From: a virus
Lineage: Duplodnaviria; Caudoviricetes
Strand: one strand, 5' to 3'
IMG/VR virus record: IMGVR_UViG_3300027740_000003
Location: 320,001-384,000 of that record
Length of the DNA stretch: 64,000 bases
The translations under genes and the position numbers were made by a program. Below are positions 1,111 through 6,757 of the stretch, piece after piece (position 1 is the first letter of the stretch; every line of letters starts with the position of its first letter). The notes beneath the pieces are model-generated. The model had not been told where the DNA came from, searched no databases, and saw nothing but the letters and a program-made list of their open reading frames with translations.

Positions 1111-2955
1111 TTATACCGGTGGAGCAGGTGGACCTCCTGCTGGCGGACCGCCTAAACCTCCACCCCCTCCCATCGGTGGAGGAGACGTTAATCCTCCCCC
1201 TAATCCACCACCAAGGCCTCCTCCGCCTCCTAGTCCCATATCCATTCCACCACCTAATCCCCCAGCTCCACCAGGTGGTTGAACAGCTTGATCATATGCT
1301 GTCTCTCCAGGCAACGGACTATCTATAATCTCCTGAATCTCATCATCATCACCAATGCTTCGGAGATCATTAAGCCCCATCCTTTGAAGGGCCTCCATCT
1401 CCTTGGCCTGTATAATTAACTCTATATTCTCTCTTCGAATATGCCTTACCTCTTCCTCATACTCTAGTCCAAGAGATTTATACATTGTCTGCAACGAAAC
1501 TTTCCTAGGTTCCTGTTGAATTAAATTATATAAATTCTGAATATAATCACCCATATCAAATAATGACATGTGATTCCACTCAACATCAGGAACAATAAGC
1601 CTTTTCTGTCCATCAACAATATCATAGAAATCATTCATTTTAGATATTGGAGCAAATATTTTTCTGCGCAACCATGTGCTTAACATGTTTCTGAATTGCA
1701 TATATCTCTGTCTTAATACGTCTAAAGATACCCCTCCATTCGCATACGTCACGTCTGCCCCACCATCCATAATAACCTGTGGAACCATCAGTCCTATATA
1801 AATCAACTTAATAAGCCGTTCAATATCACCAGAAATATCATAAATGCCAGCACCAAAACCAACAGGCTCAACTGATACCGCATCATGTGTAAATATCTTA
1901 AAATCCTTAGAATAACTTGCCTCTTCGAATACTTGACGCCATGGTTCAAGATCTGCCGGTGTTGGTTTGTAATTTTCTCCACCACCACCTATCTTTATTA
2001 ATGTGAGCGGGTTGATAAACTGTGAAGCCTGTACATATTTTGACTCATAAAGCTGGTCAAAAAGCATTAAAGCTCTAAAACAACTTACTGGCAATCCGGT
2101 TCCTCTTACCTCATAAGGAGCTATCCTCCTAGCAATATGAGATACATAAAAATTGCTTAAAGGAATATTTTCTCCTTTTCTAACATGTTCTATAATGCTA
2201 GGGTCGATCTGTTGTCTCTGATATAAATCAGACGGCCTATTGCCAGTTATTATCTTCCTTAAATTCTCATCCGGCCTTAAAGACATAACCGGTTCACCAG
2301 CAATTACATTGCGCCTAACATCTATAAAATCAGGATTCTGAATTGTTATTCTACTCCATTTTGCAGTATTTTGATCTAATTCTGCATAAGGAAATGCTTC
2401 ACCTAGAGTCCAATATTCTTGTGCTATTTGCGTACATACATTCATTAAATCTATTTCATCAATCATATTTTCAAAAAATGCATTAACTTTAGAATTTTTA
2501 CATTTTATATTTAATTTAGATATAGGATAGGTAGAATGTAAAGAAATAGCATTTTGAACAATAGGATTTAATGCAAAAAAACTTCTACACCAAGCATTAA
2601 TTGTTGCTTTATCTCTTGGCAGGTTTAGGTTGCTAAGCAGCCAAAGAGGAGAATAAACCTCGGGCATCATTCTATCAGTGCCACCAGAACCACGATATCC
2701 AGATCCAGTTCCTGAATTTGAATCAAATACTCCCGCAGTTTTTACCCTAGATCCAAGAACTGTTCCTAATGTTGTTTTATTAAACTCATCTGTAAAATTT
2801 CTACCTACAGGATCCCCACGAAACTTTCCCGACTCAATTTCTTCCTCTAAAACTTCTCTACGATATTGAGATACAGAACGCGCCATCCTCTCTGTAGCCT
2901 GTGGAGATACTCCTTTCTTCTTTGCTAAATATTGCTCAGAATTTGTTTTGATCAT
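1111..2955 (-). CDS. Phage portal protein
   Basis: 614 aa, immediately downstream of terminase (apart from the TnpB insert); portal-like segment NPIVQNAISLHSTYP...IAQEYWTLGEAFPY and RGTGLPVSCFRALM; Gly/Pro-rich C-tail. Confidence 0.75.
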   Translation of the reverse strand: MIKTNSEQYLAKKKGVSPQATERMARSVSQYRREVLEEEIESGKFRGDPVGRNFTDEFNKTTLGTVLGSRVKTAGVFDSNSGTGSGYRGSGGTDRMMPEVYSPLWLLSNLNLPRDKATINAWCRSFFALNPIVQNAISLHSTYPISKLNIKCKNSKVNAFFENMIDEIDLMNVCTQIAQEYWTLGEAFPYAELDQNTAKWSRITIQNPDFIDVRRNVIAGEPVMSLRPDENLRKIITGNRPSDLYQRQQIDPSIIEHVRKGENIPLSNFYVSHIARRIAPYEVRGTGLPVSCFRALMLFDQLYESKYVQASQFINPLTLIKIGGGGENYKPTPADLEPWRQVFEEASYSKDFKIFTHDAVSVEPVGFGAGIYDISGDIERLIKLIYIGLMVPQVIMDGGADVTYANGGVSLDVLRQRYMQFRNMLSTWLRRKIFAPISKMNDFYDIVDGQKRLIVPDVEWNHMSLFDMGDYIQNLYNLIQQEPRKVSLQTMYKSLGLEYEEEVRHIRRENIELIIQAKEMEALQRMGLNDLRSIGDDDEIQEIIDSPLPGETAYDQAVQPPGGAGGLGGGMDMGLGGGGGLGGGLGGGLTSPPPMGGGGGLGGPPAGGPPAPPV

Positions 2956-4130
2956 GAACTATCCTTTGTTTTAAAACATAGATTACCTTTTGATATAATC
3001 TCAAGGCTTTTTAATTCGGACAATTCCTGACCGAATACTGTCTCTAATCCTTTTATCAATATATTCTTAGCTGCGTTTATATCTCTATCATGCAATGTTC
3101 CACATGTGGAACATTGCCATTCCCTATCAGAAAGAGATAACTCTTGATGAATCTTTCCACAAACATGACATCTCTTTGAACTTGGTTCAAATCGATTGAT
3201 TTGAACCAATGTTCTTCCATACCATTTTGCTTTATATTTCATCATTGCAACAAATTTGCTCCAAGAAACATCTCCGATGTTTCTTGACATTACTGAAGGA
3301 GATTTCTCCAAAAGAGATTTTACATTAAGATCTTCTAAACATATTACGTGGTTATTGTTAATAATATTAGAAGATAATTTATGTAAGAAATCATCTCTTT
3401 TATTGCAAATCTTTTCATGTAATAAAGCAATTCTTAGTTTTAGTTTGTTATAATTATTTGATCCTTTTATTTTGTTAGATAATAATTGTTGTAATCTTTC
3501 TAAATGTTTTAGTTCTTTATTATAGAATTTAGGATTATCTATTTTAGAACCATCAGAAAAAGTAGTAAAAGTTTTTATACCTAAATCTATTCCTATATAA
3601 TTTGGACCTAAAGTCTTTTCAGGAAGTTTATTTCCGTCCTCAACTAGAATAGAAATGAAATATTTATCAGTAGGTGTTTTAGAGACAGTACAAGTTTTAA
3701 TTTTTCCCTCAAATCTTCTATCAATTCTTGCTGCAATATTTTTAATTTTTGGCAATTTAATAATGTCTTTTGAGAAATTTACTTTAACTCCTTGAGGAAT
3801 TGAATAAGATTGTTTTAAATATTTATTTTTAAATCTAGGGAAAGAAGTTCTTTTCTCAAAAAATCCTTTATAAGCCCAACACATATGTCCAACCTCTTGT
3901 TGAAGAGCTTGCGATGAAACATCATATAACCAACTATATTCATTTTTAAGATCTTTTAAAAATCCAGAAATAATATCAAAACATGATAGGTTAATTTTAT
4001 TTTTATTATAAGTTTCTCGCTTGGCTTCTAAAGTTTTATTATAAACAAATCTACAACAACCAAAAGTCTTCGCAAAGAAAACTTTTTGTTCTTTAGTAGG
4101 ATAAAGTCTATATTTATAAGATTTTAACAT
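2952..4130 (-). CDS. tnpB: RNA-guided endonuclease TnpB (IS200/IS605 or IS607 family)
   Basis: N-terminal KSYKYRLYPTKEQ...FGCCRFVYN; RuvC motifs IGIDLG, ICLEDL, DRDINAAKNIL; Zn ribbon CHVC...CSTC. Confidence 0.95.
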   Translation of the reverse strand: MLKSYKYRLYPTKEQKVFFAKTFGCCRFVYNKTLEAKRETYNKNKINLSCFDIISGFLKDLKNEYSWLYDVSSQALQQEVGHMCWAYKGFFEKRTSFPRFKNKYLKQSYSIPQGVKVNFSKDIIKLPKIKNIAARIDRRFEGKIKTCTVSKTPTDKYFISILVEDGNKLPEKTLGPNYIGIDLGIKTFTTFSDGSKIDNPKFYNKELKHLERLQQLLSNKIKGSNNYNKLKLRIALLHEKICNKRDDFLHKLSSNIINNNHVICLEDLNVKSLLEKSPSVMSRNIGDVSWSKFVAMMKYKAKWYGRTLVQINRFEPSSKRCHVCGKIHQELSLSDREWQCSTCGTLHDRDINAAKNILIKGLETVFGQELSELKSLEIISKGNLCFKTKDSS

Positions 4131-4205
4131 TTTTTAAATTTTTACCAATTTATAGAAATATACAAAAATATTAATTATATAAATTTTGCACTTGGGGTTG
4201 ATCAT
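2956..4205 (-). mobile_element. Non-autonomous TnpB-only insertion element (no tnpA) on the portal start codon
   Basis: 8-bp direct repeat ATGATCAA (minus strand) at 4198-4205 and 2948-2955; removing the interval gives GAGG-catataatt-ATGATCAAAACA..., an intact SD plus portal start. Confidence 0.65.
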
Positions 4206-4233
4206 AATTATATGCCTCAATATCTATATAACA

Positions 4234-6108
4234 TCACCTGAACGGACAATAACCGACAATTGCAGGAATTTTCTCCGGCCCTCTCTTGTCAAATGGTCCT
4301 TTCTTATTATCAGAAAATCCTCCTGATACCCAGAATTTATATGCCAAATAAGCATTAACCAAAGCCATCATGCCGTCATTTGGCGTAGATCCTTTAATAA
4401 ATCTCCTAACAGGCTCGTTTACCACGTTAAATGTAGTTTTTACTTCCATTGAAGCACAATGGTCTATTAACCAAGATATCTTGTCATATCCAGAATTTTC
4501 CCCTCTAGCTCCACCCAATGGAAATCTTATTAACCCACGTTTCATTACATTAAATACTTCTTCAATATAATATTCTCTTTCTGCTTTTATTAAATGAGGA
4601 AATGAATCTGTATATAATTTAGCTTTACCAGTTAATTTCCCTGCAAGTTCACAACCAAGGAACCTGTCTCCATATTCTCTCTGCAAATCTTCTGTAAGTT
4701 CATGGGCAAATCCAATATCTCCTATGGCCTGGACTATACTGTATTTCCTCATAACTTCATGAATATAATTTCTTTTATATTCATTGTCATTTTTTTTAAC
4801 AATTCCAGCATAATCAATAACTAATCTTCCAGGACCGTCTTCTCTTAAAACAACACAAGTAGAATAAGATTGACCACCTGCTCTTCTTGCCTCTTCTTTC
4901 CCAACCTGATCTTCATCAGATCTCTTTCCCCAGTCAAATCCGGCAAATACTTTTGCTTCCTCAGACCTTGGTATAGTTGCCCGCATACATCTCTTCGAAT
5001 CTCCACATTTTTCAATAATTTCTTCTTTTGAAATCGGACCCATATCACCAGTATAAAATTCTCCCAAAACCTCATTCATATAAGCCCGCTCCGTGTTAAC
5101 AAGGCTTTTTTCCGGTTTTTCATCATCCATTGCTTCTCTGGTAAATCGAGGATTATAAAGCTGATTAATGTGATACCCAATCATAGAAACGTTAGGATCG
5201 TCATCGTCTCTGGTTCCTATCCATTTGCCCCTTTCTGCTGCTTCTCTTTTATCTTGAATATGATTGCATTCTGGACACTGAACCATAAATCCATAAATCC
5301 ATATCTTTTCCCAATCATTGCTTCCTGGTGTATAAAGTGGAAAATGTTTGCCACAATTTTCACAACCAAGATAATAATATTTCTGACTAGACTCTGTCCA
5401 CATTTTATAATAATGAGAGCTTTTGCTTCTTGGGGTACCAAAATAAACCTGTACTCCTTTTGTTGGCTTTCCATATTGAGCCTGAGTACACATCTTATTT
5501 ATATTCGCAATGGCAGTCTGCATGATTGACTGAATCTCATCAAAAAGAATAATATCAACGGTACCACCCATCAACCTGTCCCCATCAATTCCAGTAGACT
5601 CAATACGAACGAAATTACCACCTTCAAATTGTTTATACTGCAACGAATTATTTGTTGGAGACGTCTTGTCTAATTTGGATTCAATAATAGAAATAGACCT
5701 AGATCCTTTGGTTAAACCAGAAGGAATAGATCCTTTAATCATTGAATTGAATTTGGTTTTTGCATATAAATGAACGTGAACCAATGTTGGGAACAAATGA
5801 ATAACTCTTACTGGTGGCTTTCCTCCCCGGCCAAATATACCAGATGCCATAAAATAAAGTTCAAGTGCCGCGGCCATGGTTGTTGCTCCAACCTGCCGTC
5901 CCTTGACCAATATAATAGGTTTTGAATTAGCGCTTAGGGCACTTATGCCTATCTGCCTATAGATGTCTGCAAATGGCTTGTAGCCGTTCCCATGCACTCT
6001 GAATGGAAATCCGTCTAATGTAAGGTTCTGTTCACAGAACATAACAGGGTCTACACTTGAAATCCCTGATTTTAATTGTTCGAATACATTTATTTCTTTT
6101 TGTTGCAT
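4234..6108 (-). CDS. Terminase large subunit
   Basis: Walker A region KGRQVGATT, Walker B ILFDE, GTP coupling motif, CENC/CPEC Zn ribbon (GpA-like), nuclease AGFDWG and DGMMAL. Confidence 0.92.
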   Translation of the reverse strand: MQQKEINVFEQLKSGISSVDPVMFCEQNLTLDGFPFRVHGNGYKPFADIYRQIGISALSANSKPIILVKGRQVGATTMAAALELYFMASGIFGRGGKPPVRVIHLFPTLVHVHLYAKTKFNSMIKGSIPSGLTKGSRSISIIESKLDKTSPTNNSLQYKQFEGGNFVRIESTGIDGDRLMGGTVDIILFDEIQSIMQTAIANINKMCTQAQYGKPTKGVQVYFGTPRSKSSHYYKMWTESSQKYYYLGCENCGKHFPLYTPGSNDWEKIWIYGFMVQCPECNHIQDKREAAERGKWIGTRDDDDPNVSMIGYHINQLYNPRFTREAMDDEKPEKSLVNTERAYMNEVLGEFYTGDMGPISKEEIIEKCGDSKRCMRATIPRSEEAKVFAGFDWGKRSDEDQVGKEEARRAGGQSYSTCVVLREDGPGRLVIDYAGIVKKNDNEYKRNYIHEVMRKYSIVQAIGDIGFAHELTEDLQREYGDRFLGCELAGKLTGKAKLYTDSFPHLIKAEREYYIEEVFNVMKRGLIRFPLGGARGENSGYDKISWLIDHCASMEVKTTFNVVNEPVRRFIKGSTPNDGMMALVNAYLAYKFWVSGGFSDNKKGPFDKRGPEKIPAIVGYCPFR

Positions 6109-6118
6109 CTTTACCTGC

Positions 6119-6757
6119 TCACTTGGAAGCAGGCATCAAACTCATAAATGCATCGTCTTGTGGAACATCTTCCTTTCCTACATTCTTTCCTAGATAAGGA
6201 CTCTGAACCGCAGGTGATACCATTGACCTGGCTTCCAATATTAAATTACTTAGAAATTCTTCAACTTCTACCGTCCTGACATCAGACGGGTCTACCCTAA
6301 ATAAATGCTCAATATCATGCTGTAGTTGTGGAACTGAGGCCGATAATCCATGAACATTATCTATATAGTTCTTGATATATGTTATTATTGTATTAAAATC
6401 ATATTTTTTTAATGACTCTGGAACCTCATCTTCTTCCATTATCTGAGCTACAATCTTTTTAAATTTATTGCTATCATCCTGCTGTATTTTGCTAAGATAT
6501 GAATTTAACCCAGTCCTGTTCCTCATGTCTTCTACAGCATCATCTACAGTAGCATAGCGAGGTTTTGTTGCTTTTATATTGTTTATTTCACTAACAATAG
6601 ATTGACGGCTTCTAGCCTGTTCAACAGCGCTATGTTGCTGTCTAGCCATTTGATCAACAACTCGATGCATCCATGGTGTTAGATTATCATAGCTCTCTTT
6701 CTCATAGCCAGAATCTTCATCACTAATTCTATTTACTCCAGAATATCCTCTAGGCAT
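6119..6757 (-). CDS. Hypothetical protein, morphogenesis module
   Basis: 212 aa ORF co-oriented, abutting neighbours. Confidence 0.6.
   Translation of the reverse strand: MPRGYSGVNRISDEDSGYEKESYDNLTPWMHRVVDQMARQQHSAVEQARSRQSIVSEINNIKATKPRYATVDDAVEDMRNRTGLNSYLSKIQQDDSNKFKKIVAQIMEEDEVPESLKKYDFNTIITYIKNYIDNVHGLSASVPQLQHDIEHLFRVDPSDVRTVEVEEFLSNLILEARSMVSPAVQSPYLGKNVGKEDVPQDDAFMSLMPASK

What the first reader, a model, noticed from the sequence alone, without database searches (positions are those of the whole stretch)
2948..4215. TnpB cassette inserted precisely on the portal start codon and rebuilding it
Seen: minus-strand ATGATCAA occurs at both ends of the cassette (4198-4205 and 2948-2955). 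The upstream copy follows a GAGG SD at 9 nt but leads nowhere. The downstream copy is the portal start, overlaps the tnpB TGA, and gets a new AAGGA SD from the tnpB tail. All three RuvC catalytic residues are intact and there is no tnpA. Known: IS200/IS605 right ends often finish in TCAA, and the omega-RNA guide derives from the flank just beyond the right end. Inference: the guide would be the portal 5' sequence (AACAAATTCTGAGCAATA...), so TnpB would cut element-free portal alleles of co-infecting relatives. That makes it a homing-endonuclease-like or phage-competition element that is harmless in an essential operon.
Basis: partly seen in the sequence, partly recalled or inferred. Interest (0 to 1): 0.75.

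Follow-up and report, generated by a model that had tools for sequence, protein, structure and literature searches.

The report
TnpB transposon at phage portal start
A 1,250-base selfish element carrying an RNA-guided nuclease (TnpB) sits exactly on the start codon of the portal gene of a 435-kb phage and rebuilds that codon from its own end. Sister phages still carry the uninterrupted site its guide RNA would specify (one base off), so it is a good natural candidate for RNA-guided homing between phages, though no cutting or expression has been shown.

Summary
Window 4203..2954 (minus strand, 1,250 bp, GC 0.27 against 0.37-0.39 in the flanks) is a TnpA-less IS200/IS605-type tnpB element lying between the large terminase and portal genes.

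- **Insertion:** None of 79 related phage loci has it. With the cassette removed, the window aligns without a gap at the junction to the closest relative (L007, 92% portal identity).
- **Ends:** Relatives of the element show that the right end is TTCAT (the TTCAC/T transposon-encoded motif), not TCAA. The target motif beside the left end is TTAT.
- **Start codon:** Both motifs end in AT. Insertion at TT-AT|G therefore restores the portal ATG automatically.
- **Repeat:** The 8-bp repeat is 2 nt of motif overlap plus a 6-nt direct repeat, GATCAA. The canonical mechanism does not explain that repeat.
- **Nuclease:** TnpB keeps D182/E266/D350 and its zinc finger. The guide-RNA scaffold shows covariation.
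- **Extra scaffolds:** Two gene-less scaffold copies lie elsewhere in the genome. One sits in front of a head-protease-like gene, and a sister phage has TTAT plus a perfect target at that spot.
- **Relic start:** The upstream ATG opens a 23-codon reading frame that ends 3 nt before tnpB.

Homing or competition is the best reading, but it is inferred. It is a new variant of a known kind.

The parts
4234..6108 (-). large terminase gene (624 aa), upstream neighbour
   Evidence: phrog_675 E 1e-54 and GpA_ATPase
4215..4218 (-). original portal ribosome-binding site, GAGG, 9 nt before the relic ATG
   Evidence: relatives have AGGG at the same spacing before their portal ATG
4204..4207 (-). TTAT, the transposon-adjacent motif (TAM) directly 5' of the left end. 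Its last two bases are the AT of the relic portal start.
   Evidence: The same element in two different flanks (L105, L113) shares sequence from TTAT onward. TTTAT precedes the left end in L143, L144, L156, L126, L110 and L115. PMC10055086 reports TAM TTTAT for ISGst2.
2954..4203 (-). the inserted element, 1,250 bp: non-autonomous, tnpB-only, IS200/IS605 type
   Evidence: Absent from 79 relatives. With the cassette removed, the window aligns to L007 without a gap at the junction, 83.5% identity over 407 columns. GC 0.266.
4134..4205 (-). relic portal start opening a 23-codon upstream reading frame (MINPK..VKI, stop TAA 4136..4134), ending 3 nt before the tnpB ATG
   Evidence: translational coupling to tnpB is inferred, not shown
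4198..4203 (-). direct repeat copy 1 (GATCAA), the first six bases of the left end
   Evidence: analogous repeats directly after the TAM occur in L110 (10 nt), L137 (10 nt) and L115 (about 9 nt)
4131..4203 (-). left end. It keeps the conserved GTGCAA core (4191..4186) but has no GC-rich subterminal hairpin.
   Evidence: Folded as DNA: -4.2 kcal/mol, z 0.33, against -12.5 and -11.7 kcal/mol (z -3.1 and -2.0) for relatives L101 and L110
2952..4130 (-). tnpB, 392 aa, with RuvC D182/E266/D350 and zinc finger C321/C324/C340/C343
   Evidence: Pfam; ISDra2 TnpB structures 8EXA and 8H1J at E 4e-63; invariant columns; residues read directly
2954..3058 (-). guide-RNA (omega RNA) scaffold, lying wholly inside the tnpB 3' coding region and ending at the right end
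   Evidence: Covariance model R1 scores it 83.7 bits, E 1e-16. 13 of 24 consensus pairs covary across 10 copies. Stems A and B fold well in this copy; the last stem is weak.
2962..2966 (-). AAGGA, a new ribosome-binding site for portal, supplied by the 3' arm of the last stem of the right end
   Evidence: related elements mostly carry a G-rich tract (GGAG, GAGG, AGGG, TGGG) at this position
2954..2958 (-). TTCAT, the transposon-encoded motif (TEM) and the last bases of the right end. It gives the AT of the portal ATG and the T of the tnpB TGA.
   Evidence: Family-wide right end ..TAGTTCA(C/T) followed by unrelated flanks. L135 and L154 have the same flank with C or T at the last position.
2948..2953 (-). 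direct repeat copy 2 (GATCAA), phage flank: the G of the portal ATG plus codon 2 and two bases of codon 3
2934..2953 (-). predicted 20-nt guide and target, GATCAAAACAAATTCTGAGC (portal codons 1-7)
   Evidence: Inferred from the position directly 3' of the scaffold end. The sister phage has TTAT followed by the same sequence with one mismatch at position 4. There is no other TTAT-flanked near-match in the window.
1111..2955 (-). portal gene (614 aa); its start codon is rebuilt across the right-end junction
   Evidence: phrog_16240. Its N-terminus aligns from residue 1 to L007, L008 and L009.

Best explanation
**What is shown**
- A non-autonomous IS200/IS605-family element carrying tnpB only was inserted 3' of a TTAT motif whose last two bases are the first two bases of the portal start codon (TT-AT|G).
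- The element's own terminal motif is TTCAT, so the junction reads ..TTCAT|G and the ATG is restored.
- The 3' arm of the last stem of the right end supplies AAGGA as a ribosome-binding site.
- The tnpB stop (T|GA) overlaps the portal ATG.
- The original portal ribosome site and ATG now head a 23-codon frame that stops 3 nt before tnpB.
- Terminase, leader frame, tnpB and portal thus form one tightly packed co-oriented run, which would explain why the insertion is tolerated in an essential late operon.

**What is inferred**
- TnpB, with an intact RuvC site, binds the guide-RNA scaffold encoded in its own 3' end (3058..2954).
- The guide runs on into portal codons 1-7.
- In a cell co-infected by a relative with the uninterrupted site (TTAT followed by the guide match), the complex would cut that genome. 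Repair from the element-bearing genome would copy the cassette in (non-restorative transposon homing), or the rival would simply lose out.
- The phage's own copy is spared because the target there follows TTCAT rather than TTAT.
- Two gene-less scaffold copies elsewhere in the genome could give the same TnpB two further guides in trans.
- With no TnpA in the genome and no left-end hairpin, spread by classical peel-and-paste transposition is unlikely now.
For: **Insertion and boundaries**
- tnpB is absent from all 79 related loci.
- With the cassette removed, the window aligns to L007 without a gap at the junction. A second sample holds the same empty allele.
- The right end is defined by identical elements sitting in different flanks. 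The left end and TAM are defined by L105 against L113 and by four TTTAT-flanked copies.
- TAM TTTAT and TEM TTCAC match the experimentally studied ISGst2 (PMC10055086).

**Nuclease competence**
- Domain architecture, similarity to ISDra2 TnpB at E 4e-63, and D182/E266/D350 plus the zinc finger.

**Guide RNA**
- The scaffold is conserved, with compensatory changes in 13 of 24 pairs.
- There are three copies in the genome and none in the relatives' terminase-portal loci.

**Targets exist in nature**
- The sister phage has TTAT plus a perfect match of at least 30 nt at the site of the orphan scaffold in front of the head-protease-like gene.
- It has TTAT plus a 19-of-20 match at the portal site.

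**The same geometry recurs**
- In L115, TTCAT|G rebuilds the ATG of a 273-aa AAA-ATPase gene, and a repeat follows TTTAT.
- In L105, the next gene's ATG starts directly after TTCAC.

**Concept**
- Homing into co-infecting phages is already proposed in theory (PMC13565253).
Against: - No RNA data, cleavage data or population data exist for this phage. The guide RNA, its ends and its activity are all inferred.
- The last scaffold stem is thermodynamically weak in this copy (-2.9 kcal/mol, z -0.8). This copy also scores lower on the model (84 bits) than the two orphans (112 and 106 bits).
- The only empty portal alleles found differ from the guide at position 4, next to the TAM, where by general knowledge of TnpB mismatches are poorly tolerated. 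No perfectly matching empty allele was found in IMG/VR or the JGI metagenomes.
- The scaffold and guide overlap the portal ribosome site and start. Guide-RNA formation and portal translation should therefore compete on the same transcript.
- A 6-nt direct repeat is not expected from the canonical mechanism, which leaves no target duplication.
- tnpB may be kept open merely because portal translation is coupled to it.
Confidence: 0.6

Rival explanations
1. Stranded passenger. The element landed once, mobilised by a TnpA supplied in trans, and survived only because its TTCAT end happens to restore the ATG. It is now immobile and functionally silent. tnpB stays open because portal translation depends on ribosomes reading through it.
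For: - No TnpA is present.
- The left-end hairpin is gone and the last right-end stem is weak.
- There is a single tnpB copy.
- No element-free or recombinant alleles appear in the source sample's contigs.
- The nearest TnpB is only 61% identical, so there is no sign of recent spread.
- The ATGA overlap makes coupling plausible.
Against: - All catalytic and zinc ligands are kept over 392 codons.
- Scaffold stems A and B are kept.
- Two further scaffold copies are kept without a gene, about 93% alike by my count from the aligned sequences. One exactly matches a TTAT-flanked site in the sister phage, which is hard to explain for junk.
- GC of 0.27, below the phage's 0.37-0.39, argues against long neutral residence.
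Confidence: 0.22
2. Domesticated anti-competitor system. The phage keeps one TnpB and three guides mainly for its own benefit, to destroy genomes of related phages at the starts of head genes (superinfection exclusion). Copying of the element is a side effect.
For: - There is one nuclease gene and three scaffolds.
- Two of the three guides cover translation starts of head-morphogenesis genes: portal, and a protein of at least 1,301 aa with a head-protease-like domain.
- The orphan has lost its TAM, left end and tnpB yet keeps a well-folded scaffold.
- The sister phage carries both target sites.
Against: - The position at gene starts is equally explained by survivorship. TTAT is common in AT-rich ribosome-site-to-ATG spacers, and insertions elsewhere kill the phage.
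- The third scaffold lies among small genes of unknown function, and its empty site could not be found.
- There is no evidence that the orphans are transcribed.
- The portal guide mismatches the known sister allele.
Confidence: 0.13
3. One reading: the right end finishes in TCAA, insertion occurred after ATGATCAA, and the guide is AACAAATTCTGAGC. A variant is that the 8-bp repeat is a target-site duplication made by a different, cut-and-paste transposase.
For: - The 8-bp repeat allows any cut point within it.
- IS608 ends in TCAA (general knowledge).
- ATCAA resembles the TEM core TCA.
Against: - All 10 scaffold copies aligned, and dozens of more distant ones, end at ..GTTCA(C/T) and diverge right after it. 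None carries a TGATCAA extension.
- The TAM is TTAT or TTTAT wherever it can be defined.
- No other transposase is present.
- The repeats vary in length (6, about 9, 10 and 10 nt) and are absent from most copies, which is unlike a transposase duplication.
Confidence: 0.05

Closest known systems
ISGst2-type IS200/IS605 elements of Geobacillus stearothermophilus (Meers et al. 2023, PMC10055086)
   Same: - TAM (T)TTAT beside the left end and TEM TTCAC/T as the last bases of the right end.
- A guide RNA encoded in and after the tnpB 3' end.
- TnpB cuts the TAM-flanked empty site, while the TEM-flanked occupied site is spared.
- Gene-less mini-elements exist alongside full elements.
   Different: - No TnpA anywhere in the genome, and the left-end hairpin is lost.
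- The host replicon is a 435-kb lytic-type phage.
- Insertion is on a start codon, which is restored.
- A 6-nt direct repeat follows the TAM.
- The whole scaffold lies inside the tnpB reading frame.
- Homing would be between co-infecting genomes, not restoration after excision.
ISDra2 TnpB of Deinococcus radiodurans (PDB 8EXA, 8H1J, 8BF8)
   Same: The same domain order, the RuvC D-E-D triad and the zinc ribbon. Sequence match E 4e-63 over residues 3-361.
   Different: - ISDra2 has TAM TTGAT (from memory) and a TnpA partner.
- Activity of the phage protein has not been tested.
Free-standing homing endonuclease genes of T-even phages (SegB, SegF, SegG, Mob; intronless homing and localized marker exclusion)
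   Same: A selfish nuclease gene wedged between conserved phage genes. It is expected to cut the rival allele in co-infection and be copied in, together with its flanks.
   Different: - Recognition would be RNA-guided, and presence or absence of the insert itself distinguishes self from non-self.
- The nuclease is unrelated (RuvC-type rather than GIY-YIG or HNH).
IStrons (IS605/IS607 fused to a group I intron; PMC10690162)
   Same: A tnpB element that manages to sit in or at an essential gene without destroying it, with a built-in conflict between guide-RNA formation and host gene expression.
   Different: - There is no intron here (no Rfam match).
- Harmlessness comes from restoring the start codon and ribosome site and from translational coupling, not from splicing.
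Stand-alone guide-RNA loci and palindrome-associated mini-elements (PATEs) of IS200/IS605
   Same: The two orphan copies are gene-less derivatives that keep the right-end scaffold and a flank-derived guide.
   Different: - They lack a left end and, at the one site that could be checked, the TAM.
- They are therefore not mini-transposons with two ends.
- Both start at the same scaffold position.

Membership tests
TnpB (RNA-guided nuclease of IS200/IS605 and IS607) | HTH, OrfB_IS605 (RuvC) and TNB zinc-ribbon domains in this order | tested here: met
   PF12323 at 1-45, PF01385 at 168-274 and PF07282 at 290-357, all above their cut-offs; phrog_506 E 5e-126
TnpB (RNA-guided nuclease of IS200/IS605 and IS607) | RuvC catalytic triad D-E-D and CxxC..CxxC | tested here: met
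   D182 (IGIDLG), E266 (CLEDLN), D350 (HDRDINAA), and C321/C324/C340/C343
TnpB (RNA-guided nuclease of IS200/IS605 and IS607) | structured guide-RNA scaffold overlapping the 3' end of the gene and ending at the right end | tested here: met
   10-copy alignment in which 13 of 24 pairs covary; model hit at 83.7 bits. Transcription and processing were not tested. No curated Rfam family matches.
TnpB (RNA-guided nuclease of IS200/IS605 and IS607) | RNA-guided cleavage of TAM-flanked DNA | not testable with these tools
   Needs an interference or in vitro assay
IS200/IS605 insertion sequence | TAM directly 5' of the left end and a related TEM as the last bases of the right end | tested here: met
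   TTAT at 4207..4204 and TTCAT at 2958..2954; boundaries set from relatives and from the empty sites
IS200/IS605 insertion sequence | subterminal imperfect hairpins at both ends (TnpA binding sites) | tested here: not met
   The left end of this copy has no significant hairpin (z 0.33), whereas relatives have CCCCTGCC..GGCAGGGG. The right-end hairpin is weak. This copy looks like a decayed, non-mobilisable member.
IS200/IS605 insertion sequence | Y1 HUH transposase TnpA, in the element or in trans | tested here: not met
   No PF01797 match in the 435-kb record, while the control genomes do match. A host-encoded TnpA cannot be excluded.
IS200/IS605 insertion sequence | insertion without target-site duplication | tested here: inconclusive
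   A 6-nt GATCAA repeat follows the TAM and the TEM. Similar repeats occur in 3 other elements out of about 54, and most have none.
IStron | group I intron fused to the element | tested here: not met
   No Rfam family reaches its threshold anywhere in the window
TldR (nuclease-dead TnpB-like transcription factors) | inactivated RuvC site | tested here: not met
   The triad is intact

The most novel reading that the evidence does not exclude
This would be a TnpA-independent, RNA-guided gene drive living in giant phages. One TnpB would serve three guide RNAs, two of them placed at the translation starts of head-morphogenesis genes. It would cut sister phages in co-infection and copy itself, or exclude them. 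The variable-length direct repeats that follow the TAM in some copies (6-10 nt; window, L110, L137, L115) would then be molecular scars of such homing or re-insertion events. The TTCAT end together with the G-rich last stem would be an adaptation that lets the element occupy start codons of essential genes.
Probability: 0.3. Interest if true: 0.8.

Novelty: new variant of a known kind. Interest (0 to 1): 0.55.

Why it matters
TnpB is known to act as a homing nuclease that restores its transposon after excision in bacteria. Homing into co-infecting phages has so far only been proposed in theory (PMC13565253).

This locus gives a concrete natural test case. It has an intact TnpB in an essential phage operon, exactly defined ends, a predicted guide, and sister phages from the same metagenomes that still hold the TAM-flanked targets. 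One target matches perfectly (the orphan guide) and one differs by a single base (the portal guide).

It also shows a simple rule for how such elements can sit harmlessly on start codons. The TAM and TEM both end in AT, and the right end brings its own ribosome-binding site. This may explain why several of the phage-borne copies examined abut the start of the next gene.

All of this can be tested in E. coli without the unknown host.

Tried and rejected
- **Rfam:** A scan of the whole window found no family at gathering threshold.
- **Reference phages:** A DNA search found only tnpB fragments and no relatives of the flanks. Relatives were then found through the portal protein.
- **Exact scaffold word:** GCCTTGAGATTATATCAA gave 0 hits in IMG/VR and 7 unexamined single hits, in taxonomically scattered organisms, in genomes.
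- **Sequencing runs:** No RNA holder is listed. The two DNA runs, from one sample that is probably the source, are contigs only and show no joint skipping the cassette and no variant.
- **Empty portal allele:** An exact search in IMG/VR and the JGI metagenomes found only the ATT (one-mismatch) sister allele, in two samples.
- **Orphan's empty site:** An exact search in IMG/VR found nothing. The site was found instead through the neighbouring 210-aa protein.
- **Third orphan:** Its empty site could not be determined. The closest homologous loci have no DNA held or a different gene order.
- **Hotspot idea:** I tested whether the terminase-portal junction is a hotspot for homing endonucleases. 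The larger gaps in relatives hold a PIN-PhoH gene on the other strand or unknown ORFs, not endonucleases.
- **Promoter and terminator scan:** Not above shuffles and not informative.
- **Repeat counting:** A count-based test for direct repeats (4 of 54 with 7 nt or more, against about 5% in a null inflated by related flanks) is not significant on its own. The case rests on exact position after the TAM and on the two 10-nt repeats.
- **L115 correction:** The first automatic match, at -47, was a chance match inside the element. The real repeat follows TTTAT further upstream.
- **Whole-scaffold fold:** The single-sequence fold differs from the consensus structure, so the consensus was used.


Full report
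**1. What is there**

The window is bases 320001-384000 of a 435,004-bp virus record rated complete. On the minus strand the order is as follows.
- Large terminase, 6108..4234 (GpA_ATPase; phrog_675).
- A 392-codon ORF, 4130..2952.
- Portal, 2955..1111 (phrog_16240, E 8e-53).

The middle ORF is a TnpB. It has the HTH_OrfB_IS605, OrfB_IS605 and TNB zinc-ribbon domains, all above their cut-offs. It matches the solved ISDra2 TnpB at E 4e-63 over residues 3-361.

D182, E266, D350 and the four zinc cysteines are present. They are invariant among 20 relatives.

ATGATCAA occurs at 4205..4198 and 2955..2948. The tnpB TGA overlaps the portal ATG. GAGG lies 9 nt before the upstream ATG and AAGGA lies 6 nt before the portal ATG.

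The cassette has GC 0.266, against 0.388 for portal and 0.373 for terminase. No Y1 transposase is encoded anywhere in the record, and this is the only tnpB.

**2. It is a precise insertion**

The portal protein retrieved 79 related loci from IMG/VR. None has a tnpB between terminase and portal, and none has the guide-RNA scaffold.

In the closest relatives, terminase and portal are about 30 nt apart. L007 (92% portal identity) reads ..GGGTATTATATTATGATTAAAACAAATTCTGAGCAATATTTAGC. The same allele occurs in a second sample (L200).

When 4203..2954 is removed from the window, it aligns to L007 without a gap at the junction, at 83.5% identity over 407 columns. The insert is therefore exactly 1,250 bp. 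The portal N-terminus (MIKTNSEQYLAKK) is the ancestral one.

**3. Where the element really ends**

The 8-bp repeat leaves the cut point ambiguous, so I used relatives of the element. The nearest TnpBs are only 58-61% identical. The ones whose contigs I fetched mostly sit in contigs with phage-like gene content, several from the same metagenome as the sister phages.
- **Right end.** In all of the closer relatives, and in most of 80 more distant phage-borne copies, the conserved sequence ends in ..(G/C/T)AG(T/C)TCA(C/T) and unrelated flanks follow immediately. Identical elements in different loci (L143, L144, L149, L156, L162) diverge right after GTTCAC. L135 and L154 share a flank and differ only by C or T at the last position.
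- **Left end.** The same element in two different contexts (L105, L113) shares sequence from TTAT|CGATATCGTGCAAAG onward. Four copies of another subgroup are all preceded by TTTAT.
- **Published match.** These are the TAM (TTTAT) and TEM (TTCAC) shown experimentally for ISGst2 (PMC10055086).

For the window this gives:
- TAM TTAT at 4207..4204;
- element 4203..2954;
- TEM TTCAT at 2958..2954.

The explanation for the rebuilt start codon is simple. TAM and TEM both end in AT, so TT-AT|G becomes ..TTC-AT|G. The T of the TEM plus GA of the flank also makes the tnpB stop.

The same geometry occurs in an unrelated phage contig, L115. There TTCAT|G restores the ATG of a 273-aa AAA-ATPase gene. In L105 the next gene's ATG begins directly after TTCAC.

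In related elements, the 3' arm of the last right-end stem is mostly G-rich (GGAG, GAGG, AGGG, TGGG) about 6 nt from the end. It acts as a portable ribosome-binding site.

**4. The guide-RNA scaffold and two orphan copies**

The last roughly 105 nt of the element (3058..2954) are repeated at 76-78% identity at two other places in the genome that have no tnpB.

An alignment of the three copies with seven relatives gives a three-stem consensus in which 13 of 24 pairs show compensatory changes. A covariance model built from it finds exactly these three sites in the 435-kb genome, at 112, 106 and 84 bits. In every copy the conserved part stops at TTCA(C/T) and the downstream sequence is unique, as expected for a scaffold followed by a flank-derived guide.

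There are caveats for the window copy.
- The whole scaffold lies inside the tnpB reading frame.
- Stems A and B fold well, but the last stem is weak.
- This copy scores lowest on the model.

One orphan (G000 313414-313519, minus strand; L196:3915-4020) lies directly before a gene of at least 1,301 aa with a head-maturation-protease-like domain. L201 and L202 (91% neighbour identity) read ..GGACATACAATTAT|TGGAGTAATATGAATAG. That is TTAT followed by a perfect match of at least 30 nt to the sequence after the orphan's TTCAT.

In the window's genome the 7 nt CAATTAT are replaced by the scaffold. The TAM, the left end and tnpB are therefore gone there.

Both orphans begin at the same scaffold position (..CATAATAAAAGG). 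This remains unexplained. The empty site of the third copy (L197:3457-3563) could not be found.

**5. What remains odd: the 6-nt repeat**

After the AT shared by TAM and TEM is set aside, GATCAA is still present twice: as the first six bases of the left end and as the flank after the right end. Peel-and-paste transposition makes no duplication (PMC10055086).

The same arrangement, TAM then repeat then left-end core, with the repeat again after the TEM, occurs elsewhere.
- L110: TCTGGTGGTG, 10 nt.
- L137: TTAATCAAAT, 10 nt.
- L115: about 9 nt.

Most elements have none. Elsewhere the few bases between the TAM and the conserved left-end core travel with the element (L105 = L113) but vary between near-identical elements (L143, L144, L156).

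Two mechanisms could produce this.
- (a) The flexible boundary choice of TnpA seen by Meers et al. The transposase cuts downstream of the native TEM and captures a few flank bases. If the circle is then opened at the native TEM, those bases end up at the left end. A repeat results when the element re-enters the same or an allelic site.
- (b) A repair scar. After a TnpB cut in an empty allele, the TAM-side end keeps the first n bases of the target before copying starts in the donor's left end.

Either way the repeat would mark movement between allelic sites. This is speculation, and I could not test it.

**6. Expression logic (inferred)**

The relic portal ribosome site and ATG open a frame of 23 codons that stops 3 nt before the tnpB ATG. 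tnpB has no ribosome-binding site of its own. tnpB then ends in ATGA with portal.

Terminase, leader, tnpB and portal could thus be translated as a coupled chain. This would both feed TnpB and keep portal expressed. The price is a conflict, because scaffold and guide cover the portal ribosome site and start.

**7. Mobility**

The genome has no TnpA. The left end has lost the GC-rich hairpin that relatives keep. Classical transposition of this copy is therefore unlikely. If it still spreads, it would be by nuclease-triggered recombination between co-infecting genomes, or simply vertically.

**8. Known or new**

- TnpB genes are known to be frequent in phages (PMC12607003; a cyanophage example).
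- The homing role of TnpB is established in bacteria (PMC10055086).
- Its extension to co-infecting phages is proposed only in theory (PMC13565253).
- In the literature searches I ran, I found no description of a tnpB element sitting on, and regenerating, the start codon of an essential phage gene. Nor did I find one TnpB with extra gene-less guides at head-gene starts.

I file it as a decayed, non-autonomous member of IS200/IS605 with an intact TnpB. As a system it is a new variant of a known kind.

**9. Verdict**

- That this is a precise IS605-type tnpB insertion with TAM TTAT and TEM TTCAT is close to certain.
- That TnpB with this guide, and with the orphan guides, actually cuts rival phages is the best-supported function, at about 0.6 including the selfish and the beneficial shades of it. 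It rests on sequence logic only.
- The main rival is an inert passenger kept open by translational coupling, at about 0.2.

Noticed in passing
L196:3915-4020 (-) = G000:C1:313414-313519, 6.5 kb before the window start: Gene-less copy of the TnpB guide-RNA scaffold (106.5 bits), ending in TTCAT 10 nt before the ATG of a gene of at least 1,301 aa with a head-protease-like domain. Sister phage L201/L202 has the empty site TTAT|TGGAGTAATATG.. with a perfect match; in this genome the TAM (CAATTAT) is replaced.
   Followed up: yes
L197:3457-3563 (+) = G000:C1:394956-395062, 11 kb after the window end: Second gene-less scaffold copy (112 bits), ending in TTCAC, on the strand opposite to its small neighbouring ORFs. 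Its last roughly 38 nt overlap the 3' end of a 75-aa ORF. Its empty site in relatives was not found.
   Followed up: partly
L196 and L197 orphans, left boundary: Both orphans begin at the same scaffold position (..CATAATAAAAGGATTAG) and carry an extra 5' hairpin, GGATTAGAAATAATCC, that the full-length elements lack. The shared boundary suggests either one deletion derivative that was copied, or a boundary set by the RNA's 5' end.
   Followed up: no
L110:1400-1480 and 2646-2680; L137 and L115: Direct repeats of 10, 10 and about 9 nt lie directly after the TAM and again after the TEM in three other phage-borne tnpB elements. This is not expected for IS200/IS605, and most copies lack such repeats.
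   Followed up: partly
L115:3198-4028: A second case of start-codon restoration in an unrelated 25-kb phage contig: the right end ..GGGTAGTTCAT|G forms the ATG of a 273-aa IstB/AAA-like ATPase gene, and the relic TTTATG.. remains at the left end.
   Followed up: partly
L023:3008-5914, also L026, L055, L062, L076: In several relatives the terminase large subunit is a single ORF of 967-982 aa with an in-frame insert of about 1 kb near residue 181-186. In L023, the one scanned, the insert has a LAGLIDADG domain. This is probably an intein in the ATPase domain.
   Followed up: partly
L014, L015, L017, L019, L025 between terminase and portal: A PIN-PhoH gene (430-484 aa) on the opposite strand occupies the terminase-portal gap in some relatives. 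L064 and L080 have unknown ORFs of 371-400 aa there. The junction varies in content but holds no endonuclease.
   Followed up: partly
L101 versus L102: The same tnpB element with the same upstream flank has different sequence after GTTCAC in two assemblies. This suggests a rearrangement, or recombination between copies, at the right end.
   Followed up: no
(samples 3300037067, 3300035208, 3300014204): The closest TnpB relatives (58-61%) lie in contigs of up to 463 kb whose gene content looks phage-like (MT-A70, HNH, dUTPase, RtcB, thioredoxin, LAGLIDADG). They come from the same metagenomes as the sister phages. One such contig is labelled as a Pacearchaeota archaeon in NCBI, which may be a binning error.
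   Followed up: no
window 6119-6757 (-): The 212-aa protein directly upstream of the large terminase has only a weak TnpV match below the cut-off (E 6e-5). By position it may be the small terminase subunit.
   Followed up: no
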